A stretch of 64,000 nucleotides of DNA. It comes from a virus (taxonomy: Duplodnaviria > Heunggongvirae > Uroviricota > Caudoviricetes). The translations under genes and the position numbers were made by a program. Location: positions 51,764 to 115,763 of the IMG/VR virus record IMGVR_UViG_3300045923_000005, one strand, 5' to 3'. How positions within the stretch are numbered: position 1 is the first letter of the stretch; each line of letters starts with the position of its first letter. A model generated the notes under the pieces. The model worked only from the letters and a program-made list of their open reading frames with translations, was not told the origin of the DNA and did not search any database. Below are positions 59-57,798 of this stretch, piece by piece.

Positions 59-661
59 TCAAATCTTACCAAACAGTTCCGCGTATTTCTCCAAGTAAGC
101 CACTTCGATGTCACTAGGATCCTTGAACCAGAATGACTCAGGGTAACTGAATTCTTCAATGTAGGCACAGGCTTCTTCTTTCAAACCGGGAGGCGCTTCC
201 CAATTTTCACCTTTGGAGATGATCAGTTCTTGAACTTCGACGTGTAGGGCTAGATAGTCAGCCTTCTTACAACCATCTGTACTCTTCTCAGGGAGACCAT
301 ATTGTTTGCGCAGGCGAATTTCAAGTACTGCCTCGACATTCTTGTAGTCAGGCAATAAGACCTTCCAAGGTGAGGGAATATCAGACAGGATAGACTCTTG
401 TCCATCGTGCATGAATCCCTCCCGAGGATCCCCTAGCTTCTTATTCTCCATGATATCAGCAACCAGAATGGAATGCTGAGCAACGGTGTAGAGCCTTGTG
501 CAATGACCATTGTAGCGGCACATCTTGCTCAGACTGGCCGCCATGTTAGGAATGGTGAAGGCAGTGTCCTTGTAATAGAACCGGCTGCCGTCAGCTAGTT
601 CGATCCAAAGAGCGCTGTCGCCAACACTCGCGTAAAATTCATTTGATGATTGCTGTGACAT
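59..661 (-). CDS. HD-domain metal-dependent phosphohydrolase
   Basis: 200-aa ORF with spaced His/Asp motifs (…AQHSILVADIME… FMHDGQE… D…) typical of the HD hydrolase fold. The stop abuts the start of the upstream ORF. Confidence 0.5.
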   Translation of the reverse strand: MSQQSSNEFYASVGDSALWIELADGSRFYYKDTAFTIPNMAASLSKMCRYNGHCTRLYTVAQHSILVADIMENKKLGDPREGFMHDGQESILSDIPSPWKVLLPDYKNVEAVLEIRLRKQYGLPEKSTDGCKKADYLALHVEVQELIISKGENWEAPPGLKEEACAYIEEFSYPESFWFKDPSDIEVAYLEKYAELFGKI

Positions 662-1936: not shown

Positions 1937-2596
1937 TTACTGTAATAGAATAGGAGCCGCGTCTAGCTCAAACCCTAAGACTTTGATTGTACTTGCCAAT
2001 GTTCGTTCCAATGCCTCTATCGTCGCCTCATTACGGAGACGGCCGCAGATGATTGGATGACCGATCCATGCCCATTCAGAATAGTGAACTTTTGGATATT
2101 CCATCATCCATTGTTTTTCTGGACTCCAATCAGATTCTATATTGTAACGGAGCGCCGTTTCATAATAGTCTGGATCTGGTCCTCGACTGACTTCGATTAG
2201 ATGACCACCACCCTGACTGATCATCTGAATCTCGTTAGGAAAACGAACATCTGTCACGACATAGTTCTTACGAGGGTCAAGGTCGCGCATAAGAGCGGCT
2301 ACCCAAAGGTCTTTGTGGAAAATATTGCGACCGGCCTCTGTGCCCATCTGTTGCAATGCTTCGCGTGGAGTATATGGTCTACCCATGACCTTGGACCAAT
2401 AAACGCAGGGAGTCTCACGGAAGGTACGGGACTCTGGTGTGTCGCCCTCTAGCAGTATCCTGGGCCAACCGAAGATACAAGAGACGGCATCCTTGAGCTT
2501 ACTCGCGAATGATACAGCGATGAATCCGTGCTTGACTAGAATGTCTCCGGCAGTGCCTTTGCCGCTACCCATGAACCCTAAGAATCCTATCAGCAT
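1937..2596 (-). CDS. 1: deoxynucleoside monophosphate kinase (T4 gp1-like)
   Basis: P-loop GFMGSGKGTAGD compared with T4 gp1 LSGVKRSGKDTTAD; conserved VTDVRFPNE compared with VPDTRQDHE; 219 aa. Confidence 0.8.
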   Translation of the reverse strand: MLIGFLGFMGSGKGTAGDILVKHGFIAVSFASKLKDAVSCIFGWPRILLEGDTPESRTFRETPCVYWSKVMGRPYTPREALQQMGTEAGRNIFHKDLWVAALMRDLDPRKNYVVTDVRFPNEIQMISQGGGHLIEVSRGPDPDYYETALRYNIESDWSPEKQWMMEYPKVHYSEWAWIGHPIICGRLRNEATIEALERTLASTIKVLGFELDAAPILLQ

Positions 2597-2796
2597 TATT
2601 TACTCCAAACTCTTTTACCGTTGACCAATGACCAGGACTTGCCTTTCTTCGCCTTAGACATCTTTGCTTTGGCCCAACTTTCCTGCACTTCTTGTTGAGT
2701 GTTTGCTCTTGGAGAAGGATGATCAATTGGACCTCTGGCTGGAGTCTTCACAACTTTGAAATCTCCGTTTGGAAGATGTTCAATGGTTTCATTCAT
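2596..2796 (-). CDS. small hypothetical protein (~66 aa; internal Met of the 132-aa table ORF)
   Basis: The table ORF 2596..2994 overlaps the upstream 315-aa gene by about 200 nt and its N-terminal part is Cys/low-complexity. The plausible product starts at MNETIEHLPNG…, immediately after the 2798 stop. Confidence 0.3.
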   Translation of the reverse strand: MNETIEHLPNGDFKVVKTPARGPIDHPSPRANTQQEVQESWAKAKMSKAKKGKSWSLVNGKRVWSK

Positions 2797-2797
2797 A

Positions 2798-3745
2798 TTA
2801 CAGATTGCCCACGAATTTAGCAACGGCTGGCATATTACCTTGGAAGGCATACGTGCCGACGTGGAATGTGCGCATCCATGGGCACAACCAAATCTCACCA
2901 CCCATATTGCGGTACAGCTGACAGAAGTGATAGTCTTCAGACAAGTAGCGATCAGAGCCGCCAACCTCGAAGGTATCACCCTTCTTCTTATCATTGTAGT
3001 CCTGGACGATGGTCATGGTCCGCTTGCGGTCGATGATACAATCGAAGAACGCATGGATGTAACGGGAGCCATCGAAGTTAGCCTGACCTACGTGGTCTGG
3101 TTTGTACTTGTACTCAGGATACTGTGCCTGGTAGCGCTCAAACACGTGGCGCTTGATCATCATGAAGCCTGTGCCTATCTCCATGACGCGCAATGGTTCG
3201 CCGACGTTGAAGGTCGTCGTGCCGGCGACTGGATTGAATACATAGTCACCGATTACTTGCTCGATCTCAGCTGGACCAGGACTACCCTTGGTCGCGACGT
3301 CGCGCAGTTCATTTGGTGTAATCAATGGGTTGAGTTTGACCGCATCGATTGCTTCCTGCCACTTCATACCTTTATGAACAGCCTGGAGAGCATTGGTCCA
3401 CTTAATGCTCTTCTTAGGATATGGAGCACCTATGATGTCCTTATCCAGAGCCAAGCAACCAATGATGTCACGCGGATCAAAGTGAATGTCGGCGTCAAGG
3501 AACAGCAGGTGAGTATAGCCTGAGCGTAAGAACTCGTCCACCAAGTAATTACGAGCGCGAGTAATCAGCGACTCGTTGAAAATGAAACTGAAGCGAGACT
3601 CAAACTGGTATTGTGCGCAAAGACCCTGAAGATCCAAGCATGCTTTCATGTACATACCGGTACATTGGCCACCATACATTGGTGTAGCGATGAAGAGTTT
3701 GTTCTTTCGTAGTTGTTCTACACTTATCTGAATGTTCTGCGCCAT
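2798..3745 (-). CDS. putative glycosyltransferase (DxD motif)
   Basis: 315 aa; N-terminal LFIATPMYGGQ plus HLLFLDADIHFDP (DxD), typical of nucleotide-sugar GT-A folds. Sits in the candidate DNA-modification cluster. Confidence 0.5.
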   Translation of the reverse strand: MAQNIQISVEQLRKNKLFIATPMYGGQCTGMYMKACLDLQGLCAQYQFESRFSFIFNESLITRARNYLVDEFLRSGYTHLLFLDADIHFDPRDIIGCLALDKDIIGAPYPKKSIKWTNALQAVHKGMKWQEAIDAVKLNPLITPNELRDVATKGSPGPAEIEQVIGDYVFNPVAGTTTFNVGEPLRVMEIGTGFMMIKRHVFERYQAQYPEYKYKPDHVGQANFDGSRYIHAFFDCIIDRKRTMTIVQDYNDKKKGDTFEVGGSDRYLSEDYHFCQLYRNMGGEIWLCPWMRTFHVGTYAFQGNMPAVAKFVGNL

Positions 3746-3811
3746 CTGGTACCCTCATAGTTCTTGTAAAGTCGTGGGATTGTTATATTATAGGTCAATT
3801 TAACTTAAGAG

Positions 3812-4027
3812 TCAAGTGCCATCATGTTGTGCTTTAACAAATGCTTGGTAAGACTTTGTCCAGTAAGCCTTTCTATCTGGTTTGTCAAATCTTGAACCCG
3901 CATAGACCGCGTCGGCTGGCACTTGGTTGGCCATCATGACTGTGATTGTGGTTTGTCCATCTTTAAGAGTACCAACGTGATCAAACAGTACTGCGTACCG
4001 GGCAACTGTTACGACTTCGTTGGCCAT
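3812..4027 (-). CDS. hypothetical protein (71 aa)
   Basis: small ORF between the kinase and glycosyltransferase genes; promoter-like box downstream of its stop. Confidence 0.3.
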   Translation of the reverse strand: MANEVVTVARYAVLFDHVGTLKDGQTTITVMMANQVPADAVYAGSRFDKPDRKAYWTKSYQAFVKAQHDGT

Positions 4028-4563
4028 AGTTCATGCCACATCCATTCGACAACGGCACGAGTATCATCTGGCGTCTCATTAGGGAAGTCGATAATGTAAC
4101 CCATCAAGGTCATGTTGGAGCGTAGGTTGGAGACCTTCGTCTCGCGACCTTTCTTGAATATTTCTGACTGACTGTCACCACGACTGGTATGCCTAGACTC
4201 TAGGGTGCTGTCGGCGACGCTCACGTGAACGATGTGGAAGGTTGTGTCTGGTTGATCCGCTAAGAACTCTAGGAAGCTCTGTGTCCCTAGACGATCACCT
4301 TCAAATACGACGTTGCTCTTAGTGTTCTTGATGAACTCGATGGCCTGTGGTTGGACTGCCATAGAATAGCGGTCAGTACCGGGGAACGGTTCGTCCTTAG
4401 CATAGCGACCCAGGACATGGGTATCCGTTCCCTTGTTGTAAAGGGAGGGCACAAGCTTGGTCAACTCTACTTCCTGCCATGGAGCAACGCGCTCTAAGAA
4501 GGCGCGCATGATGGTGCTCTTACCACAGGCTGGTTGTCCAATCATAGCGATAATAGTTCTCAT
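4009..4563 (-). CDS. P-loop kinase-like protein (Walker A GQPACGKST)
   Basis: 184 aa; Walker A at the N-terminus, later hhhhD Walker-B-like region. The size fits small nucleotide or DNA-base kinases; position suggests a role in the modification cluster. Confidence 0.55.
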   Translation of the reverse strand: MRTIIAMIGQPACGKSTIMRAFLERVAPWQEVELTKLVPSLYNKGTDTHVLGRYAKDEPFPGTDRYSMAVQPQAIEFIKNTKSNVVFEGDRLGTQSFLEFLADQPDTTFHIVHVSVADSTLESRHTSRGDSQSEIFKKGRETKVSNLRSNMTLMGYIIDFPNETPDDTRAVVEWMWHELWPTKS

Positions 4564-5732
4564 TCAAACAATCCTTCTAGTCCAACGTTCTTTGATGACC
4601 ATATGTCGGCGTCAAACCCGTTCTCGAAGTAAGGGAACATCTTGCTCATCATGATGGGCTTACCGGTCGTGCGATAATAGTTCTGCTTGATTTGGCAGAG
4701 ACCTGGATCGCGTGGGTTGTCTTCAAGACGCAGTTCTACTGGTAGGCACTCCTTGCGCATCTGCCAGAATAACTCTACCTTCTTATCACCCCATTCCTGC
4801 TCGGCGTATTCAATACGATCGTGCATCATATCCATGTAGACGTTTGGATACCGGCGATTAGGACGGTGCCAACTCTTGTAGCAGCAGAACGTGCTCTCTA
4901 AGGTGAAGTAGGACACATCATAGTGTTTTATGCGTGCCTCTGCTTCTTCAAGTAAGAGCGCGCCCTCTGTGCCTAGCCACTCTATGGTGTCCTTATGGTA
5001 GCCGGGGAAGTTTGGGTTCTCTGGTTCATAATCATCCAGATCATCGCGACCAAGAACTTTACATAGACCGTTACGATGAGACTTAGAGCCGCTAATATCA
5101 TCAAGAAAAAGTGAATCACAATCCAAGGGAAGTCCGCAGATCCGGAGGTATTCAAGATAGGAGAACGTGGACAGTCTTCCCATGGATAGAACGTTGCCCT
5201 TGATAGCATTCCAAACATTCCTGAAGTTCTCATAATTGTTACCTTTCAAGAAGTCAGAAAAGAATCCTAGTTGAGTCCTATCCCCGACTGCTTTCTTGTA
5301 TGATTCAATACACTGAGGAAAACCGGTAACACCGATCTTGAAATACTTACGGTCGCTATCCCAACCACTACCTGCCTTGAAATGTTGATGGTTAGCATTC
5401 CACCAATCATTTAATTTGTCAACCGATGTATCCTTGAAAGTGGGGAACTGCTCCATGATAATGTTGGTCGTCACGATGTTCTGTGAACAACCATTAATGA
5501 AGGCCATCCAAAGTTTTTGCTCGTCGTCCATTTTGTGGTGCTTGGCCAACCAAGGCATAGCGAAATAGACTCCACCTGGATGGGAGTTATACTTCAAATG
5601 GAACTCATAGAAATTAAGAAACACTTCCCGGCGATACTCTGGAAGTCTGAAATCTAAGCCGGGTTGTAACTCTTTTATTTCTGAGATATCTTTCAATTCA
5701 CAATAGCGTCCCAATTGTTGTTGTTTTTTCAT
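4560..5732 (-). CDS. hypothetical 390-aa protein, candidate DNA-modification enzyme
   Basis: long ORF translationally coupled (ATGA overlaps) to the kinase and HNH genes; no motif I can name with certainty. Confidence 0.5.
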   Translation of the reverse strand: MKKQQQLGRYCELKDISEIKELQPGLDFRLPEYRREVFLNFYEFHLKYNSHPGGVYFAMPWLAKHHKMDDEQKLWMAFINGCSQNIVTTNIIMEQFPTFKDTSVDKLNDWWNANHQHFKAGSGWDSDRKYFKIGVTGFPQCIESYKKAVGDRTQLGFFSDFLKGNNYENFRNVWNAIKGNVLSMGRLSTFSYLEYLRICGLPLDCDSLFLDDISGSKSHRNGLCKVLGRDDLDDYEPENPNFPGYHKDTIEWLGTEGALLLEEAEARIKHYDVSYFTLESTFCCYKSWHRPNRRYPNVYMDMMHDRIEYAEQEWGDKKVELFWQMRKECLPVELRLEDNPRDPGLCQIKQNYYRTTGKPIMMSKMFPYFENGFDADIWSSKNVGLEGLFE

Positions 5733-6280
5733 TTAAGCGCTGCTGCCATTTTTGACCACTCTTCAAATGAAAATCTATCACCCTTTCCGTTATTACAACG
5801 TTTACAACAAACCACTATATTGTCTTTGTGGTATCCTTGTTTACAATCTTTTCTATCTAAGTTATATCCACCGTCGTCTGAATGTGGTTTAGGCCAATTG
5901 ATATCTACACCACAATAAAAACACTCTGTTATTTCTGTATATCGTACAAATTCTTCATAAGATATATCTACTGATATTCTTCTATATTTGGCAGCATTAC
6001 AAAGATCCGTATATAACCAACGATATGGCTCTTTACGTAAGTCCAATCTAACCGTTCCTATATTCGACGCGGCCATTTGTAATGTGTGTTCTCGACGTAA
6101 GCAACCACAAGATTTGATGTAATTTGATATTAGATCTGATCCTGTGATTTTCTTAATGTTACCACAATCACACGAACATTTATATACTATGCTACCGCTA
6201 TCATTTCTTCCTGCTGATTCTATCACAGTCAAGCGATTAAACTTCTGTCCTGTAAATAATTCTGGTAAACGATTAGACAT
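5729..6280 (-). CDS. HNH endonuclease
   Basis: FNRLTVIE…YKCSCDCGN plus GYHKDNIVVCCKRCNNGKGD, an HNH/zinc-finger homing-endonuclease signature. Confidence 0.7.
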   Translation of the reverse strand: MSNRLPELFTGQKFNRLTVIESAGRNDSGSIVYKCSCDCGNIKKITGSDLISNYIKSCGCLRREHTLQMAASNIGTVRLDLRKEPYRWLYTDLCNAAKYRRISVDISYEEFVRYTEITECFYCGVDINWPKPHSDDGGYNLDRKDCKQGYHKDNIVVCCKRCNNGKGDRFSFEEWSKMAAALK

Positions 6281-7373
6281 TTACAGAACCACCAACTATC
6301 CAAAACATGGTTTTGTCGTTGAAATATTGAGCAAATATGTGTTGATTTTGCTCTAAATAATTAAAACATTTTCCTTCGTATCTTGGGTGCATGACCACCC
6401 CATTGTAGGTATAGGGCATTAGGTCAGAGTAAGCACAAAAGCCTGAGCCGTTCAGGTCATAATGTTCTACTTCAATCTTGTCCTCAGTGTCGCCGAAAGG
6501 GAGACCCTCAGTTGCCCATGGCCAACTGAATACATCTGGAGCCTCTATCAAATCCAACCGTCGACGGATGAAGTCCGGGTCTTTGCTACCGTAATTGCCG
6601 ATGCCCAATAAGATGATGCGCTTCAGGTTTGGTAGTTCACCAGCGCGTCTTCGATAAGCCAAACCGTACAAGGCACCAACCGCCGAATTACAGCTACCTG
6701 CTGGGAGGATGATAGTCTCGATATGGTCGGGGACGTTAGCGCTCTGCGCGCCACCGACGGCATGAAAGTTCTTAACACGCTCAGGACTATTTCGTCCTTC
6801 ATTAACGGTAATATTTGTTTCGAGCACGAAATAACCATTGTACTTCTCTTTCTGGAGTCGGTACGCGGTAGCCTCTAGGGTCTTAGCATATCCAACTTTA
6901 CAAGGAATAAAACTAGCACCCATAGACTTAGCAATGACCAAATTAGGATGGCCAGCAATATCATCAGTACCAACGACATCAACACAAGGCGCGTCGTAGT
7001 GCTTGCAGATCGTAGCCACCATCGGATGCTGAGGAGAACCTGTAACAGCACCATGGATAACTCCTCTGGCTCCAGACTGGAGCGCATTGCTGATCAGCCA
7101 AATACAAACACGCAGCTTAGAGCCGTTGATGTTGCCATAACCTAGTGGCGCAAACTTGTCTTCGCGCTTGATCCAAATATTGCCGATCTTCTCTACTGGA
7201 GATAGATCATAGATGTGTTCTTCCCAACGCAAGTGAATGCGGTTCAGGGAAGGATTCTCAAAGATACTCTTATCCAAACAATGACTCCAGACTTGACTCT
7301 TCTTTACTGTGGTATTCTTTCCAGACATCGGTGCGGTCTGTGCTCTCGGCAAATAGTCGGAACTCTTCTCCAT
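6273..7373 (-). CDS. PLP-dependent enzyme, ACC deaminase/D-cysteine desulfhydrase family (fold type II)
   Basis: WIKREDKFAPLGYGNINGSKLR matches the family signature KREDxxxxxxxGGNKxRKLE (PLP lysine plus glycine loop). Start uncertain: the table start 7415 overlaps the upstream gene; Met15 is preceded by AGGAA. Confidence 0.7.
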   Translation of the reverse strand: MEKSSDYLPRAQTAPMSGKNTTVKKSQVWSHCLDKSIFENPSLNRIHLRWEEHIYDLSPVEKIGNIWIKREDKFAPLGYGNINGSKLRVCIWLISNALQSGARGVIHGAVTGSPQHPMVATICKHYDAPCVDVVGTDDIAGHPNLVIAKSMGASFIPCKVGYAKTLEATAYRLQKEKYNGYFVLETNITVNEGRNSPERVKNFHAVGGAQSANVPDHIETIILPAGSCNSAVGALYGLAYRRRAGELPNLKRIILLGIGNYGSKDPDFIRRRLDLIEAPDVFSWPWATEGLPFGDTEDKIEVEHYDLNGSGFCAYSDLMPYTYNGVVMHPRYEGKCFNYLEQNQHIFAQYFNDKTMFWIVGGSVNV

Positions 7374-8580
7374 CCCACATTCCTGCACTGACACCATTCC
7401 AACCTTCGCGTGCAAGAGGATTGCTTGGGTCTTTGCGCCGGTACTCTACAAAATCATACCGTAAGTCTTCATAGGCTCGGCTACCCAGTTCAAGCATTGC
7501 TTCCCTGAAGTAGCACACCAGACTGATGCGCTCTAACTCCACTCCGGCCTTGGAGATGATAGGAGTGTTGCCGTGAATGTAATCATGGTTGGCGACTAGT
7601 AGCAGATCACCAGGACGGATGTTGACGGCTGCCCGGACCTCTGGCAATACCAGATAGGCTCCGGAGTAATCGTTGTCCTTAGCGACGACCGTCAGGTTGC
7701 TGAACCCTGCTGCCAAGTCACCGGCGTCTCTATGTGCCGCCGTCCGGAAGTTCTTGTTGACGGTGATCGTTGTGAACGGTGTCTTAGGAATGTGGAAACT
7801 TGGATCGATCTGAGACGTCATAGCCATCTGGACGTTCCAACGGTATGGCAGCAGTTCTTTGAAACCTTTGGACAGCTGCTTCATAAACGGCCAGCTGAGT
7901 TTGAACCGCTCGAAGTTGTGTGCTGTATAAGACGTCGCCCGACCATATGGGATTCGTGGATACCTGTCGAACCAGCCGGCAATCCCGGAGTCAACCGGGT
8001 TGGCATAGGTGGTGTCGCTTATCAGGTTGTTCAAGACCCAGGAGGCATCGTTCCTTATCTGAGAACCGGGAACACCATCAACCAGACTGTCGTGTAGTCG
8101 GCTATCCAGCCAGCGATTGAAGTCGAAGTTGAGTCTGGCTTTCTCTTCACCGAGCCAGACCATACCGCGTGTGTCTTTCTTGTTCTTGGCGATGCTCTTG
8201 ATGCGGTCAATATCTTCCTGATTGAAGGTCGCCCGGTCGCCCAGCTTGGATAAGAAGTTCAGGATGTCCAACTGCTCTGTGGTTGCCCAGTCGCGGCCCT
8301 GACATTTGACACCCTTTGGACCGGCTGCTAGACCACGGTTCTGTGTAGGCTTGGCCGCCTGCATCAAACCTTCATAAGCACCGGCCTGTTGTTCTTTGGT
8401 GAAGAAGTTCTTACGGAACATCAGGACGACATTATGTTCCCCGTTTTCTACCGGGGACAGGGGATCCTTAAGATAGACGTCTGTGTCTTCTTCAATCAGA
8501 ATATCGTAGTGGGAGTCATCAAGAAACTTACCAAGGAGGTCTTCGCATTCACGACGCGTGACTTCAAGTACTCTTACCAA
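7270..8580 (-). CDS. 2-oxoglutarate/Fe(II)-dependent dioxygenase (HxD…H…RxS); possibly TET/JBP-like
   Basis: TAAHRDAGD (HxD) … ANHDYIHGNTP (distal His) … ERISLV (RxS), the canonical 2OG oxygenase triad spacing. The table start (GTG at 8634) lies inside a terminator hairpin, so the start was moved to the TTG preceded by GGAG (~8580). Confidence 0.6.
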   Translation of the reverse strand: MVRVLEVTRRECEDLLGKFLDDSHYDILIEEDTDVYLKDPLSPVENGEHNVVLMFRKNFFTKEQQAGAYEGLMQAAKPTQNRGLAAGPKGVKCQGRDWATTEQLDILNFLSKLGDRATFNQEDIDRIKSIAKNKKDTRGMVWLGEEKARLNFDFNRWLDSRLHDSLVDGVPGSQIRNDASWVLNNLISDTTYANPVDSGIAGWFDRYPRIPYGRATSYTAHNFERFKLSWPFMKQLSKGFKELLPYRWNVQMAMTSQIDPSFHIPKTPFTTITVNKNFRTAAHRDAGDLAAGFSNLTVVAKDNDYSGAYLVLPEVRAAVNIRPGDLLLVANHDYIHGNTPIISKAGVELERISLVCYFREAMLELGSRAYEDLRYDFVEYRRKDPSNPLAREGWNGVSAGMWDGEEFRLFAESTDRTDVWKEYHSKEESSLESLFG

Positions 8581-8587
8581 TTTCTTC

Positions 8588-8623
8588 TCCGAAAACAAAG
8601 GGCCGGAGCATTGCACTCCGGCC
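8588..8623 (-). terminator. rho-independent terminator-like hairpin downstream of cobS
   Basis: minus strand GGCCGGAGtgcaatgCTCCGGCC (8-bp perfect stem) followed by CTTTGTTTTCGG. Confidence 0.45.
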
Positions 8624-8683
8624 AAATTCTTCACTGTAGATATCTATTATACCTCACAGTTGTGTAAGAGTATATAGGAAAGT

Positions 8684-10294
8684 TTAGAAAGGTACATCCT
8701 CATCGTCATCGCCAGTGCTCGTGTTGGCCAGACTCATGTTCTTATTTGCCGCATGACTCATGACGACCGACTCCAGAGCCGTCTTAGCATCCCGTTGGGC
8801 GACCGAGTCATTGCCCGGGATAACCGAAGTCTGACCATGGCTGGTCACCGTGACCATACCCATGTCGTCAGGATCACTGACCTTGATGGCGGTCTTATAC
8901 TTGACCGACAGAGTCGCAATGTTCATCGCGTTCTTGATCAGGTTGGTCGAAGTCGAACCACCGGCTGCCGGCTTCGGTGTGTTGACCGGTTTGGAAGGAG
9001 CAACCGGTTTCGCTGCCGGCTGCGTCACCGGCTTCTGAGGAGTGACCGGAGTGGCAGGCTTCTGGTTGGCCATGGCCTGTTGACTCGCCGAGCGCAAAGC
9101 GGTGATCGCCGGATTAGGAGTGAAGGCACCCGGATCGACCGGAGCCGTCTTGGGAGCAACCGGCGCACTGGCGACAGTTTCCTTCTCATCGATCTTGGCA
9201 TCGATTTTCGTGTAGAAGTCTAAGTAGACCGTCTTCACTTCATCATCGAACCGGTTCAAGCAGAGCTCGATAGCCTTGCGCTTGTTGTTCCAGATCACAT
9301 ACGCACGAGCGATGTGGGTCAGGCGGCGAGTGCTGATGACTTCATCCACACCACCTTCCTTGTAGGTCTTACGGATCAACTCCGCCCACTTGGCGAGGTT
9401 GGTCGCGAAAGAGAGGCTCGGTTTGTTCAGGCTGGTGAACAGATTCGTGAGAATCTTGATCTCCGTGTTCAGTGACGGATATTCCTGTTCAACCGTAATG
9501 GCGAACCGTTCCAGGAAGGCTTCGTTGAGGACGTTGGCTCCGATGAACCGACCGTCATCACTACCCTTACCCTTGGTGTTGGCAGTCGCGATGATGTTGA
9601 AGCCAGAAGCAGGTGTGATAAACTCACCGCGCTTCTTGTTGAAGTAGCCTTTACCTTCGAGCACCGGCTGGAGGCAGAGCAAGCGCTCTGAACCATAGTC
9701 GGTTTCGTCGAGGAGAAGGATCGCGCCACGCTTCATGGCGACGAGGACCGGACCATCACGCCATACGGTGTTGCCGTCGATCAACTCATACGAACCAATC
9801 AAATCGGTCTCGTCGGTTTCCTTGGTAATGTTCACGCGGATCAGTTCGCGCTGGAGCTCGGCACAAGCCTGCTCAGCACCCAGGGTCTTACCATTGCCGG
9901 ACTGACCGGTAATGTAGACTGGGTAGAAGATGCGGGATTCGATGATCCCACGGAGGTCGTTGTAAAAGCCGAACGGCACGTACACAGGGTCGCGCTCGGG
10001 AATGAAGCTGTCGGCCAGGGTCTTGATCTGAGGAGCGGCGAGCTCCTGTTTGATCGCATTGACCAGCACAGGCGAAGGAGCCTCGACCGGAGCGGTGATA
10101 TCACCACTCACCCGGTATTTGCCCCAAGCCTTGCGGTTAGCTTTGTTGTTCATGAATGCCCACGGCATCGGGAGGCTCCTAGCCTTGGTGTACTCCTCGA
10201 TCTGCTTGGTCGTTACCACGTTCGTGTTGAAGTGGTTGGCCATATTAGATATGAGCGAATTGAGCTCTTCCGGCGAGTAGCTGGGTTTGGGCAT
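8684..10294 (-). CDS. cobS: CobS-like AAA+ (MoxR-family) ATPase
   Basis: Walker A ITGQSGNGKT, Walker B ILLLDETDYG, sensor/arginine region; 536 aa with a Pro/Ala/Thr-rich low-complexity C-terminus. Confidence 0.8.
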   Translation of the reverse strand: MPKPSYSPEELNSLISNMANHFNTNVVTTKQIEEYTKARSLPMPWAFMNNKANRKAWGKYRVSGDITAPVEAPSPVLVNAIKQELAAPQIKTLADSFIPERDPVYVPFGFYNDLRGIIESRIFYPVYITGQSGNGKTLGAEQACAELQRELIRVNITKETDETDLIGSYELIDGNTVWRDGPVLVAMKRGAILLLDETDYGSERLLCLQPVLEGKGYFNKKRGEFITPASGFNIIATANTKGKGSDDGRFIGANVLNEAFLERFAITVEQEYPSLNTEIKILTNLFTSLNKPSLSFATNLAKWAELIRKTYKEGGVDEVISTRRLTHIARAYVIWNNKRKAIELCLNRFDDEVKTVYLDFYTKIDAKIDEKETVASAPVAPKTAPVDPGAFTPNPAITALRSASQQAMANQKPATPVTPQKPVTQPAAKPVAPSKPVNTPKPAAGGSTSTNLIKNAMNIATLSVKYKTAIKVSDPDDMGMVTVTSHGQTSVIPGNDSVAQRDAKTALESVVMSHAANKNMSLANTSTGDDDEDVPF

Positions 10295-10324
10295 TTCAGT
10301 TCATTCCATGTTTCGATTTCATAG

Positions 10325-10408
10325 AGGCTATTATACGCCTAATCGCACACAAAGGTTGCTGATTTAACTTATTTTCGAACATTCTTTTCAAAACGTTAAC
10401 TAGTACCG
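10325..10408. repeat. conserved intergenic cassette copy A (TATTATAC-N25-ATTTAACTTATT…CGTTAACTAGTACCG)
   Basis: near-identical ~85-bp element also at ~12912, 38122, 41510 (partly inverted), 46034, 51920; lies between cobT stop and cobS start. Confidence 0.7.
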
Positions 10409-12907
10409 TTATTCGGCCACTTCGGCGGCGAACTGGCGAGCGATCAGCTTATTGTTATGCTTCTTCTTCTGGTTGTAGCTGAAAGCCTGGAATAACTGGT
10501 CTTGGGTCATACCAGCATTCATGAAGCACTTGCTACCGTCGTTGATCACCGTAGTGTCCACATAATAATAGTTGCTATAACCAAGATTGGGCACCGCCAC
10601 GAAACCGGTGGTCTTCAGCTGCTTGGCTAGGTTGTTGAAGTCCTTCTTGAACTCTTCACGACCGGCCAAACGCTGGAGGATGTATGCCTCCTGGCCGAAG
10701 TAGTATCCAATGTGGCGGGCACCGGTAGTGGCCTGGATGAGCTCGGTCACAGAAGCCTGGAACATGTTGAACATGTAGTTGCCGCTGCTCAAACCAGCCT
10801 GCTCAGGGAGCACGCTGATCTTAGTGGTCGCGTCAGTCACACCGAACTTCGTGCGAGTGATCGACGCAGACGTCAGGTTATTCATGAACGCGGGCGGGAA
10901 CACCATGGAGTTGTTGCCATCACCGTCGCTCAGGTAGATCACGTTGACGATGTCACTGTGGTGCTCGTTCTTGAACTGCTTGATGATCTCTTTGGATGCG
11001 ACCAGAGTCTCAATAAATGGCGTGCCACCTAGGTTCATACCAACCGTCTCTAAACTCTGCGCAAGGCTGAAGTTGGGGACCGAACCGAATGCCGTCGCCA
11101 CATCGGCCGGACGACCGTAGGGACTGGCGAGCTCACCGAACATGTTGACCATGTTGAACGAGCGCTTGTAGTGGTTGCCGCTGAACTTGCTGCTCAGCAG
11201 ATGGCGCAGGCAGAAGTCACCGGCCTGAAGAGTAAAGGTATTGTCAGGGTCCTTGGAGACCGTAAACGCAGCGCGCTGGCTCTGTTTACCATCCTTGCCG
11301 AAGCAACCATAGTAGCCATGACCATCAGTGTAGCCGTAAAGGTCGAACGGGATACCGACGCGCTTACAGAAGGTCGCCAGGATCAGAGACTGCTCTACGA
11401 CGTAGCGCATGAAGTCGCTCATGCTGATCGACATATCCAGGAACATCACCATGCCGTGGCTTTTACCCTTGGCGATGGTAGTGACCTTGCGGAAGAGGTC
11501 GTTGGTCAGCTTATAGCGGGCCAGACGGTTGCCGTCCAGGTCACCACTCTTAGCGGTCATCTGGCGCGAGTACTGGCTCGCGTTCTTGCGCATCTCAAAC
11601 TCTTTGACCAGCAACTGGATGTAGTTCTTGTTGCGCGTATGGAATACTTTAGTGACGCCCATGGCGACGGCATCATAGTTCAGCTTGGTGCCATAGTGTT
11701 TCTGCATCTGGTAGCGGATGCCGGTCTCGAAGGTATCTAACACAGTCTTGTTGGAGACGATGATGTTTTCCAAATGCGCTTCCGGCATCTTGAAGAACAC
11801 CTGTGACTCAGCGGTGCGGTCATTCATACCCTCTTCCGCGTCACGAAAAGCCTTGTCAGTTTCAGAGTCCGGCTCAATTTCTACCGGCTGCTCAGATTCA
11901 CTGTCGTCCTCGTCATCTCCACTCTTACCACCTTCCTTGGGCTCAGAGTTTGAACGGCTGTCTGAAGACTCATCTTCATCGTCGGCCTCATAGGAATCCT
12001 CGTCAGAGTCACCGTCAGAAGCGTCGCCTTCAGAATCATCCTTGTCAGATTCCTCGCCGTCACCCTCGTCAGATTCTTCACCATCTTCATCAGAAGGCGA
12101 CTTGTTGTCACCCTCGTCCTCGGACTCTTCATCATCCGGGTCGGCGTCATTACCATCGGCATCTTGTTCCTCAGTCTCGCCGTCACCCTCGTTGGCGTCA
12201 TCACCTTCGTCAGACTCATCAGATTCCTCAGAGTCATCCGACTCCTCGTTCTGCTTCTTGTCCTTCTTAGGCTTAGGCTGCTTGGGTTGCGGCTGTTGTT
12301 TAGGTTTCGGCTGCGCATGAGCCTTCTGGTAGTCATACACTTCACGAGCCAACTGCTCCACCTGCGCCCAGGTGTCAGCCGTAGCAATGCGGTCCACGAA
12401 GGCTTGCTCTTCAGTGTTGAAGATCACGAGCGCTTGCGCACCGAGTTTGAAGTGGACGTTGATGCGGTCGATCAGACCCATCTTTGAATAGTCACCGTTC
12501 AGTTTCTTGATCTGAAACAGGTCGCGGTCGAACAGTTCCTGGTAAGCTTCCGCAAAGGCTTTGCGCAGGCCAGGATACTTGATCTTGATGATGCGCTCGA
12601 TGCGCGCGTCTTCAATGACGTTCAAGAAACGCTTGATGTTCTTGCGCTTCTTGTCGTTGACGATGGCGTCGTGCCAACCCTGGAGAGGCGTGTGAAGCGC
12701 ATGGCTGATTTCATGACCCATGAGCAGGTCATAGATCACACCGCTCATGTCCTTCCAGATCGGGCAGGTCAGGACGCGGGTTTCAAGGTTGAACTTGGCC
12801 GTCCGCACTTGCATGTGGCGAACGGTGATATTCTCGGCCGCCATCAGTTTGGCTAGCTGAGACTTATTCTCCTGGAGGGTTGCCGTCTTCTTCACAACTT
12901 TGATCAT
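10409..12907 (-). CDS. cobT: CobT-like protein: N-terminal HExxH, poly-acidic linker, C-terminal vWA domain
   Basis: 832 aa. LLMGHEISHALH (HExxH). Residues ~200-350 are almost pure D/E/S (…DDSEESDESDEGDD…). C-terminal MIDAS motif FLDMSISMS (DxSxS) typical of vWA. Paired with the MoxR ATPase. Confidence 0.8.
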   Translation of the reverse strand: MIKVVKKTATLQENKSQLAKLMAAENITVRHMQVRTAKFNLETRVLTCPIWKDMSGVIYDLLMGHEISHALHTPLQGWHDAIVNDKKRKNIKRFLNVIEDARIERIIKIKYPGLRKAFAEAYQELFDRDLFQIKKLNGDYSKMGLIDRINVHFKLGAQALVIFNTEEQAFVDRIATADTWAQVEQLAREVYDYQKAHAQPKPKQQPQPKQPKPKKDKKQNEESDDSEESDESDEGDDANEGDGETEEQDADGNDADPDDEESEDEGDNKSPSDEDGEESDEGDGEESDKDDSEGDASDGDSDEDSYEADDEDESSDSRSNSEPKEGGKSGDDEDDSESEQPVEIEPDSETDKAFRDAEEGMNDRTAESQVFFKMPEAHLENIIVSNKTVLDTFETGIRYQMQKHYGTKLNYDAVAMGVTKVFHTRNKNYIQLLVKEFEMRKNASQYSRQMTAKSGDLDGNRLARYKLTNDLFRKVTTIAKGKSHGMVMFLDMSISMSDFMRYVVEQSLILATFCKRVGIPFDLYGYTDGHGYYGCFGKDGKQSQRAAFTVSKDPDNTFTLQAGDFCLRHLLSSKFSGNHYKRSFNMVNMFGELASPYGRPADVATAFGSVPNFSLAQSLETVGMNLGGTPFIETLVASKEIIKQFKNEHHSDIVNVIYLSDGDGNNSMVFPPAFMNNLTSASITRTKFGVTDATTKISVLPEQAGLSSGNYMFNMFQASVTELIQATTGARHIGYYFGQEAYILQRLAGREEFKKDFNNLAKQLKTTGFVAVPNLGYSNYYYVDTTVINDGSKCFMNAGMTQDQLFQAFSYNQKKKHNNKLIARQFAAEVAE

Positions 12908-12911
12908 GAAG

Positions 12912-12996
12912 ACTATTATACTCTTAATTTGACCGGCAGGGTGCTAATTTAACTTAATCCCGAACAATCTTTTCCGAAACGTTAACTAGTACCGGT
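12912..12996. repeat. conserved intergenic cassette copy B
   Basis: gaagacTATTATACtcttaatttgaccggcagggtgctaATTTAACTTAatcccgaacaatcttttccgaaaCGTTAACTAGTACCGG. Confidence 0.7.
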
Positions 12997-13094
12997 TTCT
13001 ATGCACGTCTCTGACAGTTGTCCGCTCTCCGGGCTCGATCTGTCTCTGTTCTGACCTGTACCGACTATTATACGCTGATCGGAGACAGAGACCG

Positions 13095-13397
13095 TTAACC
13101 ACCACTCGTTTCTAACAAATAGTTGGCCGCATTGGCCAGATGTGATGTATCTTCCTTGAAGTATCCTAAACCTCTGTTGCATCCATCGCATAGAAGACCG
13201 CGTACCTTACCGGTATCGTGATCATGATCTATGAACGGTCGTGACATCTTGAATCCGCCATCAGCAGGAAACGCCTTACCACAGATGGCGCAACAGTTAT
13301 TCTGAGCTAACCTCATTTCTTCAAATTGGTTCTCAGTAATTCCATACCGTCTTATGTTATCTCTACGGTGTATCTCTTTGGTCTTGATTTGCGGCAT
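13095..13397 (-). CDS. recombination endonuclease VII family protein (T4 gp49-like)
   Basis: IDHDHDTGKVRGLLCDGCNRGLG, the EndoVII H-N-H/zinc signature; 100 aa. Confidence 0.8.
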   Translation of the reverse strand: MPQIKTKEIHRRDNIRRYGITENQFEEMRLAQNNCCAICGKAFPADGGFKMSRPFIDHDHDTGKVRGLLCDGCNRGLGYFKEDTSHLANAANYLLETSGG

Positions 13398-13399
13398 AG

Positions 13400-13600
13400 T
13401 TAGCGTCCGGTCATCAAGTTAGGTTGCTCTGGGTTTCCGTTTTCCGGCCACCATATCGCATCACAGCGGCCTGTAAAGACCCACCAAGCATGTTTCCATC
13501 GTCCCCAACTCACCCATAGCGGGCGGGCGACAACCCATTGACCATCTGGTAGCTCTGTGGATACCTGTGAATCTTTGATGTCTTGAGCAGAGTACAACAT
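13400..13600 (-). CDS. hypothetical Trp-rich protein (66 aa)
   Basis: short ORF coupled between the deformylase and EndoVII genes. Confidence 0.3.
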   Translation of the reverse strand: MLYSAQDIKDSQVSTELPDGQWVVARPLWVSWGRWKHAWWVFTGRCDAIWWPENGNPEQPNLMTGR

Positions 13601-14304
13601 TAGGCTTCTGGCTCAGGTACATTCAGGGTGATCACTTCGTCTGGGATCTCGAAGTTGATCTGCTTTTCCAGAGCCTTGGCCTGGTTATCAGCGGCGACCT
13701 TGCGAGCAGCCTCCATGATGATCTTCTGCTTGTCTTGCTCTTCATACTGGCGGTCCAGCTTCTGGATATTACCCTTCTGCTTTGCCTTGGCCCGGTCCAA
13801 CCAATACTTGTTGACCTTGGTCGTGTAGACAATGCCGTCCAGGTGATCCAACTCATGAAGGAACGTGCGCGCTGTTAGGCCGCCCATCTCGGTTGTCTGC
13901 TCTTGACCATTGAAGTCCCAATAACGAACCTTGATGTGCTCAGGACGCTTGATCTTTAGGAACAGACCTTTGAAACTCAGACATCCCTCTTCAAACTCTA
14001 GCTCTCCAGAAGACTCGATGACTTCTGGATTGAACATAACCTGAACTTGAGTGCCGGCACCGATAGCGAATGCGCGGTAAGCGAAACCGATCTGAGGAGC
14101 GGCTAAACCCACACCACGATTCAACACCATGGTCTCCACTAGACTGATGGCCAGTTCCTTTGTGTTCATCTGAGGATTCTCAAAGTCCCATGCTTTGGTC
14201 TTCATGCGTAACACTTCAGAATCAGCCGGCACTAAGCCATAGATGTTATAAGTGTAGACGTTGCCCTGAAATTCTTTCTGTAGTGTCTTCAATACCTTTG
14301 CCAT
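13600..14304 (-). CDS. def: peptide deformylase with C-terminal K/E-rich extension
   Basis: three PDF motifs present: GVGLAAPQIG (motif 1), EGCLS (motif 2), HELDHLDG (motif 3); 234 aa, about 60 aa longer than bacterial PDFs. Confidence 0.85.
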   Translation of the reverse strand: MAKVLKTLQKEFQGNVYTYNIYGLVPADSEVLRMKTKAWDFENPQMNTKELAISLVETMVLNRGVGLAAPQIGFAYRAFAIGAGTQVQVMFNPEVIESSGELEFEEGCLSFKGLFLKIKRPEHIKVRYWDFNGQEQTTEMGGLTARTFLHELDHLDGIVYTTKVNKYWLDRAKAKQKGNIQKLDRQYEEQDKQKIIMEAARKVAADNQAKALEKQINFEIPDEVITLNVPEPEA

Positions 14305-14307
14305 GAT

Positions 14308-46117: not shown

Positions 46118-46186
46118 TTTGGGTGATTTTGGGTGATAAATAGGTTGGAACACCCACCCGCACCACTTATTTCCTGGAGAAATAAA

Positions 46187-56593: not shown

Positions 56594-56601
56594 AAGAGTA
56601 T

Positions 56602-57160: not shown

Positions 57161-57163
57161 GTA

Positions 57164-57723: not shown

Positions 57724-57798
57724 TACGCTTGTTCAACAAACGTAGATAGGAATCAAATAGCCGTAGCTCTTTGAAGTCGGCCGCGCTTACCGTGTCTG

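What the first reader, a model, noticed from the sequence alone, without database searches (positions are those of the whole stretch)
2596..8634. Six-gene candidate DNA-base hypermodification module inserted into the replication/recombination core
A contiguous, translationally coupled block sits between cobS and gene 1/gene 45, a position where T4 has nothing comparable. It encodes a 2OG-Fe(II) dioxygenase (HRD…H…RIS triad), a fold-type-II PLP enzyme of the ACC-deaminase/D-Cys-desulfhydrase family (KREDxxxxxxxGxNxxGSKLR), a 390-aa protein of unknown fold, a Walker-A kinase (GQPACGKST) and a DxD glycosyltransferase, plus an HNH nuclease. This combination of an oxygenase, a kinase, a PLP-dependent enzyme and a glycosyl/aminoacyl transferase is the enzymatic logic described for post-replicative thymidine or cytosine hypermodification pathways in phages. 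Those pathways use 5-hmdU DNA kinase, aGPT-pyrophosphorylase and PLP enzymes, with TET/JBP oxygenases linked to glycosyltransferases. The specific mix here, in a T4-like background with an additional plus-strand GT-B transferase at 46187, does not match any pathway I can name. It may specify a new DNA modification.
Basis: partly seen in the sequence, partly recalled or inferred. Interest (0 to 1): 0.8.

Follow-up and report, generated by a model that had tools for sequence, protein, structure and literature searches.

The report
Thymine hypermodification cassette in T4-like phage
An uncultured T4-like phage carries a gene cassette (TET/JBP oxygenase, DNA kinase, amino-acid:DNA transferase, PLP decarboxylase) that most likely converts thymines in its finished DNA into an amino-acid-derived base; this is a new example of a known pathway type, not a new kind of system.

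Summary

- **Oxygenase:** the "2OG dioxygenase" is a TET/JBP 5-methylpyrimidine dioxygenase by Pfam and by fold.
- **Transferase:** the "390-aa unknown" is an amino-acid:DNA transferase (AADT, formerly aGPT-Pplase), with its catalytic Glu/Cys conserved.
- **Kinase:** the Walker-A kinase is a remote homologue of 5-hmdU DNA kinases.
- **Decarboxylase:** the PLP enzyme is a full-length homologue of Salmonella phage ViI gp226, the O-serinyl-thymidine decarboxylase, and the Schiff-base lysine aligns.
- **HNH gene:** it is an optional homing-endonuclease insertion.
- **Glycosyltransferase:** the GT-A enzyme is a backbone gene. It is also present in phiM12-type phages that lack the cassette, so its role in DNA modification is unproven.

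The same cassette sits at the same place in several uncultured T4-like relatives. Its PLP–AADT–kinase core also occurs in ParB/short-TET clusters of the kind published in 2021 and 2026.

Most likely mechanism: T → 5-hmU (TET) → 5-phosphomethyl-U (kinase) → amino-acid adduct, probably O-seryl (AADT) → decarboxylated aminoalkyl base, 5-NeOmdU-like (PLP). The final product is not predictable from sequence.

Verdict: new member of a known kind, of moderate interest.

The parts
7270..8580 (-). TET/JBP-family 5-methylpyrimidine dioxygenase (5mYOX), 436 aa. Predicted to be a thymine dioxygenase that makes 5-hmU in DNA. The open frame extends to GTG 8634.
   Evidence: - Pfam Tet_JBP scores 74.3 bits against a cutoff of 34.9, E 8.8e-21.
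- HxD...H...R is invariant in 37 homologues.
- The AF2 model has pLDDT 87.6.
- Foldseek top PDB hits are human TET2, NgTET1, CcTet and CMD1, E 6e-12 to 1e-8.
- The start is TTG 8580 after GGAG.
6273..7277 (-). Fold-type II PLP enzyme, 334 aa, homologous to ViI gp226. Predicted decarboxylase of the amino-acid adduct on thymine.
   Evidence: - 35% identity to ViI gp226 over the full length, E 3e-69; K54 aligns with gp226 K92.
- Only 24% identity to M6 gp52, E 2e-7.
- Weak profile hits to ACC deaminase and TrpB, with the lysine aligned to the PLP lysine.
- Relatives hit PF00291.
5729..6280 (-). HNH homing endonuclease, 183 aa, inserted between the PLP and AADT genes. Not part of the chemistry.
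   Evidence: - phrog_374 HNH endonuclease, E 1.8e-20.
- Absent at this junction in L030, L032, L033/34 and L036, and present at the same junction in L005.
4560..5732 (-). Amino-acid:DNA transferase (AADT/ADDT, formerly aGPT-Pplase clade 2), 390 aa.
   Evidence: - Pfam PF18724 scores 71.9 bits against a cutoff of 26.2, E 8.6e-20.
- 26% identity to ViI gp247, E 1e-22.
- E279 and C283 are invariant and align with the Glu/Cys motif of gp247, the residues shown to be essential in PMC8989533.
4009..4563 (-). P-loop kinase, 184 aa. Predicted 5-hmU DNA kinase.
   Evidence: - Pfam Ploopntkinase3 scores 36.7 bits against a cutoff of 27.
- hhalign against ViI gp67 + M6 gp54 (both HMUDK_HMUD1) gives 96% probability, E 4.8e-9, with shared Walker A, GxY and FEG motifs.
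- Always found next to AADT in relatives.
3812..4027 (-). 71-aa ORF of unknown function. It overlaps the kinase stop by 19 nt.
   Evidence: - No family hit.
- An ORF of similar size sits at the same place in L032.
2798..3745 (-). GT-A (DxD) glycosyltransferase, 315 aa. Conserved backbone gene; its acceptor is unknown and its membership of the module is unproven.
   Evidence: - The AF2 model has pLDDT 86.8.
- Foldseek top hits are Mnn9, LH3 and ColGalT1 GT domains and ppGalNAc-Ts.
- D84/D86 are invariant.
- Present in phiM12 between gp46 and gp45 without a TET.
- More than 8000 homologues.
2596..2796 (-). 66-aa ORF between the GT and gene 1, function unknown.
   Evidence: Sequence inspection; partly conserved in L030.
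8601..8623 (-). Terminator-like hairpin with T-run between CobS and the TET gene.
   Evidence: 10-bp stem with 7 GC pairs, followed by CTTTGTTTTC.
3787..3815 (-). Sigma-70-like promoter just upstream of the GT.
   Evidence: TTGACT-17-TATAAT, 11 of 12 matches. This is a consensus match only.

Best explanation
The block is a post-replicative thymidine hypermodification cassette in an uncultured T4-like myovirus. Four genes do the chemistry.

1. The 436-aa TET/JBP dioxygenase hydroxylates the 5-methyl group of thymine in phage DNA, giving 5-hydroxymethyluracil.
2. The P-loop kinase phosphorylates that hydroxyl, giving 5-phosphomethyl-dU.
3. The amino-acid:DNA transferase attacks C6 with Cys283, expels phosphate and adds a free amino acid to the exocyclic methylene. 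Because the next enzyme needs a free alpha-amine and no radical-SAM isomerase is present, the amino acid is probably joined through its side chain, as with O-seryl-thymidine in ViI.
4. The gp226-like PLP enzyme decarboxylates the adduct to an aminoalkyl base, which would be 5-(2-aminoethoxy)methyl-dU if the donor is serine.

The result is DNA that resists host nucleases.

What is shown: the family memberships, the conserved catalytic residues and the conserved gene order. What is inferred: the substrates, the order of the steps and the final product.

The HNH gene is a homing endonuclease that happens to have inserted into the cassette. The GT-A glycosyltransferase downstream is a lineage-wide backbone gene that may or may not act on DNA.
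For: **Family and fold**
- Tet_JBP, ADDT and Ploopntkinase3 all score above their Pfam cutoffs.
- The TET model's best PDB matches are TET2, NgTET1 and CcTet.
- The iron and 2OG ligands are invariant.

**Links to characterised enzymes**
- PLP enzyme: 35% identity to ViI gp226, E 3e-69, with the Schiff-base lysine aligned. It is much closer to gp226 than to M6 gp52.
- AADT: E 1e-22 to ViI gp247, with invariant Glu279/Cys283. There is no detectable similarity to M6 gp51.
- Kinase: profile-profile 96% probability to characterised 5-hmdU DNA kinases.

**Conserved context**
- The order CobS-TET-PLP-AADT-kinase-GT-gene 1-gp45 recurs in the T4-like relatives L032, L030, L033/34 and L036, with TET identity of 56-82%. 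L005 (TET 60%) matches as far as its contig runs, which ends within AADT.
- Among 80 IMG/VR loci found with the PLP enzyme, 68 have this type of AADT adjacent, 36 this type of kinase, and 30 a TET.
- In L046 and L072 the same PLP-AADT-kinase core sits next to ParB_N plus a short Tet_JBP. This is the cluster type linked to T-dioxygenases in PMC13229309.

**Absences in the 64-kb window**
- No C5-methyltransferase motif IV and no ThyA-family motif were found.

**Published chemistry**
- The kinase, AADT and PLP steps come from PMC8989533.
- Phage T-dioxygenase activity comes from PMC13229309 and PMC8256090.
Against: - No enzyme here has been assayed, and no member of this 430-450-aa TET clade is known to me to have been tested. 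Some ParB-less clade C1 phage TETs showed no activity on T or 5mC in E. coli (PMC13229309, PMC8256090).
- The kinase does not hit the Pfam families of characterised 5-hmdU DNA kinases (HMUDK_HMUD1, HMUD2). Pairwise BLAST to gp67, gp243 and M6 gp54 is not significant.
- The AADT is only 26% identical to the serine transferase, so the donor amino acid is a guess.
- Only 64 kb of the genome was examined. A dUMP hydroxymethylase, a C5-methyltransferase or a ParB could lie elsewhere.
- One relative, L035, has TET-kinase-GT with no PLP or AADT nearby. The kinase may therefore also serve another route.
Confidence: 0.8

Rival explanations
1. This is a cytosine pathway. A C5-methyltransferase encoded elsewhere makes 5mC, the TET makes 5hmC, and the kinase, transferase and GT then decorate the 5hmC.
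For: - Phage TETs of clades A and B act on 5mC and pair with GTs and sometimes P-loop kinases (PMC8256090).
- Only 64 kb of the genome was seen.
- A GT lies downstream.
Against: - No C5-MT motif IV was found in six-frame translation of the window, and no DNA_methylase Pfam hit among the scanned ORFs.
- 5mC-type phage TETs have the methyltransferase adjacent (PMC8256090).
- AADT and gp226-type PLP enzymes are characterised only on thymidine derivatives (PMC8989533).
- Only 6% of 5mYOX pathways co-occur with a C5-MT (PMC13229309).
Confidence: 0.06
2. The same tailoring enzymes act, but 5-hmU is supplied before replication by a dUMP hydroxymethylase encoded elsewhere, as in ViI and M6. The TET then has a different or minor role.
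For: - All characterised cultured-phage pathways (ViI, M6, SP10, PhiW-14) use pre-replicative 5-hmdU (PMC8989533).
- An HD-type dNMP phosphatase-like gene lies near gp45 at 59-661. Such enzymes accompany nucleotide-pool rewiring.
Against: - The TET is the first gene of the cassette, is translationally coupled to the PLP gene, and is conserved with it in relatives.
- No ThyA-family motif occurs in the window.
- The HD phosphatase is missing from L033 and L036, which carry the full cassette.
- The published reading of such contigs is in situ hydroxylation (PMC8989533).
Confidence: 0.06
3. These are housekeeping or auxiliary metabolic genes unrelated to DNA, such as amino-acid metabolism, protein hydroxylation and surface glycosylation.
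For: - The PLP enzyme has weak similarity to ACC deaminase, D-Cys desulfhydrase and TrpB.
- The GT's nearest folds are protein and glycan glycosyltransferases.
Against: - The specific families are DNA-acting: Tet_JBP with a TET2-like fold, ADDT, and a gp226 homologue at E 3e-69.
- The housekeeping PLP models score far below their cutoffs, 22 bits against 289.
Confidence: 0.03

Closest known systems
Salmonella phage ViI (Ackermannviridae) 5-NeOmdU pathway: 5-hmdU DNA kinases gp67/gp243, serine:DNA transferase gp247, PLP decarboxylase gp226 (PMC8989533, PMC5889632)
   Same: - The enzyme logic is the same: kinase, then AADT, then PLP decarboxylase, with no radical-SAM isomerase.
- The PLP enzyme is a full-length homologue, 35% identical with the lysine aligned.
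- The AADT belongs to the same Pfam family and has the same Glu/Cys motif.
   Different: - ViI gets 5-hmU from a ThyA-type dUMP hydroxymethylase before replication. Here a TET/JBP enzyme heads the cassette.
- The kinase is in a different Pfam family (Ploopntkinase3, against HMUDK_HMUD1 and HMUD2) and is only a remote homologue.
- The genes are clustered here and scattered in ViI.
- The AADT is only 26% identical, so the donor may differ.
Metavirome Tet/JBP (5mYOX)-associated thymidine hypermodification clusters (PMC8989533, Fig. 2 sequences 22-25; PMC13229309, ParB-dependent clade C1 linked to P-loop kinases and AADTs)
   Same: - A TET/JBP dioxygenase sits next to a P-loop kinase, an AADT and further tailoring enzymes, with no adjacent C5-methyltransferase.
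- PLP, AADT and kinase proteins of the window's type (PLP 43-51%, AADT 51-53%, kinase 29% identical where detected) lie next to ParB_N plus a short Tet_JBP in L046 and L072.
   Different: - The dioxygenase here is a 436-aa form with N- and C-terminal extensions.
- No ParB was found in 64 kb.
- The host genome is T4-like, and the cassette sits at a fixed site between CobS and the GT/gp45.
Base J synthesis in kinetoplastids (JBP1/2 thymine hydroxylase plus JGT glucosyltransferase)
   Same: - Thymine is hydroxylated in DNA by a TET/JBP enzyme as the priming step.
- A GT-A type glycosyltransferase lies nearby.
   Different: - Here a kinase, AADT and PLP route follows.
- The GT does not match TAGT and also occurs without a TET, so a J-like product is speculative.
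Pseudomonas phage M6 5-NedU pathway (gp51 glycine transferase, gp53 radical-SAM isomerase, gp52 PLP decarboxylase, gp54 kinase)
   Same: The pathway class and Pfam families for the AADT and PLP enzyme are the same.
   Different: - No radical-SAM gene is present here.
- The PLP enzyme is only 24% identical.
- The AADT is not detectably similar by BLASTP.
T4 glucosyl-hydroxymethylcytosine system
   Same: T4-like replication and structural gene background, with DNA protection by base modification.
   Different: - The T4 system is pre-replicative, uses a cytosine-based dCMP hydroxymethylase and has GT-B glucosyltransferases.
- None of these features was found in the window.

Membership tests
TET/JBP 5-methylpyrimidine dioxygenases (5mYOX, PF12851) | Profile match above the curated cutoff | tested here: met
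   74.3 bits against a cutoff of 34.9, E 8.8e-21. All listed homologues carry PF12851.
TET/JBP 5-methylpyrimidine dioxygenases (5mYOX, PF12851) | HxD...H iron triad and the 2OG-binding Arg | tested here: met
   H283, D285, H336 and R351 are invariant in 37 sequences.
TET/JBP 5-methylpyrimidine dioxygenases (5mYOX, PF12851) | TET-type double-stranded beta-helix fold | tested here: met
   The AF2 model has pLDDT 87.6. Foldseek top hits are TET2, NgTET1, CcTet and CMD1, all at probability 1.00.
Phage thymine dioxygenase subclass (as opposed to 5mC dioxygenase) | No neighbouring C5-methyltransferase, and neighbours that are thymidine-pathway genes | tested here: met
   No motif IV in the window. 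The neighbours are an AADT, a kinase and a PLP enzyme. This is context only; the substrate itself was not tested.
Phage thymine dioxygenase subclass (as opposed to 5mC dioxygenase) | Oxidation of T to 5-hmU in DNA | not testable with these tools
   Needs expression followed by nucleoside LC-MS.
ParB-dependent 5mYOX subclass (PMC13229309) | Co-located ParB homologue | tested here: not met
   No ParB_N hit among the scanned ORFs and no GERR-type motif in 64 kb. A conserved helical C-terminal extension is present, so the subclass stays open.
Amino-acid:DNA transferase (AADT/ADDT, aGPT-Pplase clade 2, PF18724) | Profile match above the cutoff | tested here: met
   71.9 bits against a cutoff of 26.2. 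The controls ViI gp247 and M6 gp51 hit the same model.
Amino-acid:DNA transferase (AADT/ADDT, aGPT-Pplase clade 2, PF18724) | Essential Cys nucleophile with a neighbouring Glu | tested here: met
   E279 and C283 are invariant in 9 sequences, including ViI gp247. Their essentiality is shown in PMC8989533.
Amino-acid:DNA transferase (AADT/ADDT, aGPT-Pplase clade 2, PF18724) | Identity of the donor amino acid | not testable with these tools
   Only 26% identity to the serine transferase. Profile search against the PDB gave no hit.
5-hmdU DNA kinase (PF18748 HMUDK_HMUD1 / PF18747 HMUD2) | Match to the family profile | tested here: not met
   The window kinase hits PF18751 Ploopntkinase3 only. ViI gp67 and M6 gp54 hit PF18748, and gp243 hits PF18747.
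5-hmdU DNA kinase (PF18748 HMUDK_HMUD1 / PF18747 HMUD2) | Remote homology beyond the P-loop, and adjacency to an AADT | tested here: met
   hhalign gives 96% probability, E 4.8e-9, over 125 columns. The kinase is adjacent to an AADT in the window and in many loci.
ViI gp226-type PLP-dependent DNA-adduct decarboxylase | Full-length homology with the Schiff-base Lys conserved | tested here: met
   E 3e-69, 35% identity; K54 aligns with gp226 K92. The lysine also aligns with the ACC deaminase PLP lysine.
ViI gp226-type PLP-dependent DNA-adduct decarboxylase | Decarboxylation of an amino-acid-thymine adduct | not testable with these tools
   Biochemical assay needed.
GT-A (DxD) glycosyltransferase | GT-A fold with a DxD motif | tested here: met
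   Foldseek top hits are Mnn9, LH3-GT, ColGalT1 and GalNAc-T. D84/D86 are invariant.
DNA base glycosyltransferase linked to TET (TAGT / JGT-like) | Profile match to TAGT, or strict co-occurrence with a TET | tested here: not met
   No TAGT hit. The GT occurs in phiM12, phiM7 and phiN3 without a TET.
HNH homing endonuclease | HNH profile match and presence/absence polymorphism at the site | tested here: met
   phrog_374, E 1.8e-20. Absent in L030, L032, L033 and L036; present in L005.

The most novel reading that the evidence does not exclude
A ParB-less, 430-450-aa TET clade fixed at one site in T4-like phages primes thymine for interchangeable tailoring cassettes. In this phage the end product would be a base not yet described. 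Two possibilities are an adduct from an amino acid other than serine, or a mixed genome in which the conserved GT-A enzyme glycosylates residual 5-hmU (base-J-like) alongside an aminoalkyl-thymine.
Probability: 0.22. Interest if true: 0.65.

Novelty: new member of a known kind. Interest (0 to 1): 0.45.

Why it matters
If the prediction holds, a widespread environmental lineage of T4-like phages modifies thymine after replication using a TET/JBP enzyme. That would differ from the classical T-even strategy of rewiring the nucleotide pool.

The same TET sits at a fixed position in these phages with swappable tailoring genes:
- PLP plus AADT plus kinase.
- Glutamine amidotransferase plus GNAT acetyltransferase plus AADT.
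- Cytidylyltransferase plus GT.
- UDP-galactopyranose mutase.

This gives a natural panel for discovering new DNA bases and for finding stand-alone thymine dioxygenases of use in 5-hmU and epigenetic sequencing chemistry.

Such DNA may also cut or sequence abnormally, which would matter for metagenomic recovery of these phages. This last point is an inference and was not tested here.

Tried and rejected
- **Nucleotide search:** megablast of the block against 50,697 phage records found nothing. The phage is distant from all isolates; its gp23 is at most 56% identical.
- **PDB by sequence:** single-sequence searches were uninformative for the AADT, TET and PLP enzyme. The AADT profile also found no PDB entry, including PaMx11 gp46, so Cys247 of that structure could not be aligned.
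- **NCBIfam:** only sub-threshold hits to housekeeping PLP families.
- **Kinase comparisons:** pairwise BLAST against ViI gp243, ViI gp67 and M6 gp54 was not significant. Only profile-profile comparison showed the relationship.
- **Literature:** no paper mentions Ploopntkinase3.
- **ParB-like N-terminal domain in the TET:** considered and rejected. The whole protein aligns to TET catalytic domains.
- **GT as an integral module member:** considered and set aside because of phiM12 synteny.
- **The plus-strand 'GT-B' at 46133-47245:** it gave no family hit.

Full report
**What is in the sequence**

The window is part of a T4-like myovirus. It carries gp23, the prohead protease and scaffold, UvsW, UvsY, gp46/47, gp45, gp55 and a terminase. 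The phage is distant from every isolate. Megablast of the block finds nothing, and the major capsid protein is at most 56% identical to cyanomyovirus proteins. The identical sequence lies on a 90.7-kb Logan contig (SRR35360338) and on a 115.8-kb JGI contig.

The minus strand carries, in order:
- CobT-like, 10409-12907
- CobS, 8684-10294
- the TET gene
- the PLP gene
- the HNH gene
- the 390-aa gene
- the kinase
- a 71-aa ORF
- the GT
- a 66-aa ORF
- gene 1, dNMP kinase, 1937-2596
- gp45, 1212-1898

Neighbouring genes overlap by 4-19 nt from the TET gene to the 71-aa ORF. I made three boundary corrections.

1. A 10-bp GC-rich hairpin with a T-run (8623-8601) lies inside the first 18 codons of the 454-aa ORF. 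It is followed by GGAG-N7-TTG at 8580. The TET gene therefore most likely starts at 8580 (436 aa), as the gene callers and the homologue alignments also indicate.
2. The PLP gene starts at TTG 7277 after GGAG (334 aa). Homology begins there.
3. The ORF at 2596-2994 overlaps the GT. The plausible gene is 2596-2796 (66 aa).

**What the proteins are**

*Dioxygenase.* It scores 74.3 bits on Pfam Tet_JBP against a cutoff of 34.9. H283-x-D285, H336 and R351 are invariant in 37 homologues. An AlphaFold model (pLDDT 87.6) has human TET2, Naegleria Tet1, CcTet and CMD1 as its best PDB matches, with E from 6e-12 to 1e-8. The family is large, with at least 2677 database proteins, mostly 430-450 aa.

*The '390-aa unknown'.* It is an amino-acid:DNA transferase (PF18724 ADDT, 71.9 bits against a cutoff of 26.2). 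It is 26% identical to ViI gp247, the serine:DNA transferase (E 1e-22). Glu279 and Cys283 are invariant across nine sequences including gp247. These correspond to the Glu/Cys pair shown to be essential in PMC8989533.

*PLP enzyme.* It is 35% identical over its full length to ViI gp226 (E 3e-69). Its Lys54 aligns with gp226 Lys92, the predicted Schiff-base lysine (PMC8989533). It is much further from M6 gp52, at 24% and E 2e-7. Its similarity to ACC deaminase, D-Cys desulfhydrase and TrpB is real but weak: 1rqx E 9e-4 and TIGR01275 at 22 bits against a cutoff of 289.

*Kinase.* It hits PF18751 Ploopntkinase3 at 36.7 bits against a cutoff of 27. It does not hit the families of characterised 5-hmdU DNA kinases. 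ViI gp67 and M6 gp54 fall in PF18748, and ViI gp243 in PF18747. Pairwise BLAST is not significant. A profile of eight window-type kinases does align to gp67/gp54 with 96% probability (E 4.8e-9). The alignment shares the Walker A, GxY and FEG motifs. I therefore treat it as a remote homologue with the same predicted job.

*HNH protein.* It matches homing-endonuclease PHROGs.

*GT.* It has a GT-A fold. The model (pLDDT 86.8) has Mnn9, LH3-GT, ColGalT1 and ppGalNAc-T as top hits. The D84-x-D86 motif is invariant.

**Context from related sequences**

The TET clade occurs in these cultured phages:
- Stenotrophomonas phage DLP6, 46%
- phage C48C1, 44%
- Caulobacter phage Cr30, 43%
- Synechococcus phage S-CBWM1, 30%

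In uncultured T4-like relatives the order CobS-TET-PLP-AADT-kinase-GT-gene 1-gp45 recurs:
- L032, TET 82%
- L030, 74%
- L033/34, 62%
- L036, 56%
- L005, 60%, which matches as far as AADT, where the contig ends

The HNH gene is absent at the PLP/AADT junction in four of these. It is present at the same junction in L005, which is typical of a homing endonuclease.

Elsewhere the same TET is followed by other tailoring sets:
- kinase plus GT only, in L035
- glutamine amidotransferase, GNAT, AADT and kinase, in L021 and L023
- cytidylyltransferase plus a GT1 enzyme, in L019
- UDP-galactopyranose mutase, in C48C1
- ADDT, a TAGT-like protein, a kinase and inositol-1-phosphate synthase, in Cr30

The TET is thus a fixed priming enzyme with modular followers.

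I searched IMG/VR with the PLP profile and kept the 80 best loci:
- 68 have a window-type AADT adjacent, at 41-72% identity
- 36 have a window-type kinase
- 30 have a TET
- none outside the Ackermannviridae showed ViI-type kinases or hydroxymethylase

In L046 the core is preceded by two ParB_N proteins and a 260-aa Tet_JBP. In L072 the PLP gene and an AADT fused to a P-loop domain lie between a ParB_N gene and a 271-aa Tet_JBP. This is the ParB-dependent cluster type that O'Toole et al. 2026 link to P-loop kinases and AADTs (PMC13229309). Lee et al. 2021 had already shown Tet/JBP next to thymidine-hypermodification genes in metavirome contigs and interpreted it as in situ formation of 5-hmU (PMC8989533).

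**The glycosyltransferase**

The GT follows the kinase in every cassette-bearing relative, but this adjacency is explained by backbone synteny.
- In Sinorhizobium phage phiM12, which has no TET hit, the GT lies directly between gp46 and gp45.
- The GT family has at least 8000 members at 60-89% identity. It is better conserved than the TET.
- A 66-nt gap and an 11/12 sigma-70-like promoter precede it.
- It does not match the TET-associated GT family.
- Its nearest folds are protein and glycan transferases.

I therefore list it as a neighbour of uncertain relevance.

**Mechanism**

Shown:
- The family memberships and the conserved catalytic residues.
- The conserved gene order and translational coupling.
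- The absence from the 64-kb window of C5-methyltransferase motif IV, ThyA-family motifs and ParB.

Inferred from the published chemistry of the families:
1. The TET converts T to 5-hmU in DNA.
2. The kinase makes 5-phosphomethyl-dU.
3. The AADT, through Cys283 addition at C6, displaces phosphate and adds an amino acid.
4. The PLP enzyme decarboxylates the adduct.

A PLP enzyme needs a free alpha-amine, and no radical-SAM isomerase is present, unlike in M6. Both the AADT and the PLP enzyme are also of the ViI type and not the M6 type. The most economical prediction is therefore a side-chain-linked adduct such as O-seryl-thymidine, giving 5-NeOmdU.

My confidence in the pathway class is about 0.8. 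My confidence in that exact product is about 0.35-0.4.

**Comparison, novelty and score**

The system works like the ViI pathway, fed by a Tet/JBP enzyme in place of a dUMP hydroxymethylase. It belongs to the already described class of 5mYOX-associated thymidine hypermodification clusters. What is particular here:
- the T4-like host genome and the fixed insertion site
- the long, apparently ParB-less TET clade, which has a conserved C-terminal helical extension
- the Ploopntkinase3-type kinase

No record appears among the organisms named in both the TET and PLP tblastn searches of 50,697 phage genomes. The combination may therefore be known only from uncultured phages. However, the PLP summary leaves six organism names unlisted.

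From memory, T4's alpha-glucosyltransferase gene lies close to genes 46/47. I did not test this.

I rate the finding a new member of a known kind, with interest 0.45. It is a good, testable candidate but not a surprise to specialists.

Noticed in passing
window 55444-58363, minus strand: A run of about eight small ORFs (85-119 aa) encodes acidic proteins, most with an N-terminal 'DELDEF'-type motif. It looks like a tandemly duplicated small-protein family.
   Followed up: no
It has more than 4700 homologues of about 350 aa but no Pfam, PHROG or NCBIfam hit. One JGI record calls a homologue 'glycosyltransferase involved in cell wall biosynthesis'. Its fold was not tested.
   Followed up: partly
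window 59-661, minus strand: An HD-domain protein matches 'deoxyribonucleoside 5' monophosphate phosphatase' (phrog_318, E 9e-41) three genes from gp45. A 202-aa ORF occupies the same position in L032, though its homology was not checked. No ORF occupies that position in L033 or L036, which carry the full cassette.
   Followed up: partly
window 10409-12907, minus strand: The CobT-like 832-aa protein has a long Asp/Glu/Ser-rich low-complexity insert at about residues 200-340. tblastn to relatives splits around it.
   Followed up: no
L002 (Caulobacter phage Cr30, KF301602) 9001-17894: This cultured phage carries a TET/JBP annotated as 'SNF2 DNA repair protein', a strong ADDT (E 1e-52), a weak TAGT-like protein, inositol-1-phosphate synthase and a window-type kinase, all within 9 kb. 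All but the inositol-1-phosphate synthase are annotated as hypothetical or misnamed. It is a tractable phage for testing TET-primed thymine modification.
   Followed up: partly
L035 (ENA ERZ12298641 scaffold_555, 166.7 kb) 8854-11774: This relative has TET-kinase-GT with no PLP enzyme or AADT nearby. The phosphorylated 5-hmU may be an end product there or may feed another enzyme.
   Followed up: no
window 32650-33141, 60110-60763, 13095-13397, 17099-17536: Several further homing-endonuclease-type genes (HNH, NUMOD3-containing, Endo VII) are scattered among core genes. The genome appears rich in selfish endonucleases.
   Followed up: no
public annotations of DLP6, Cr30, S-CBWM1 and HTVC112P: The TET/JBP homologues are annotated as 'SNF2 DNA repair protein' in these records. 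The 5-hmdU kinases of ViI and M6 are annotated as 'terminase small subunit', and phrog_800 carries the same label. These look like propagated misannotations.
   Followed up: partly
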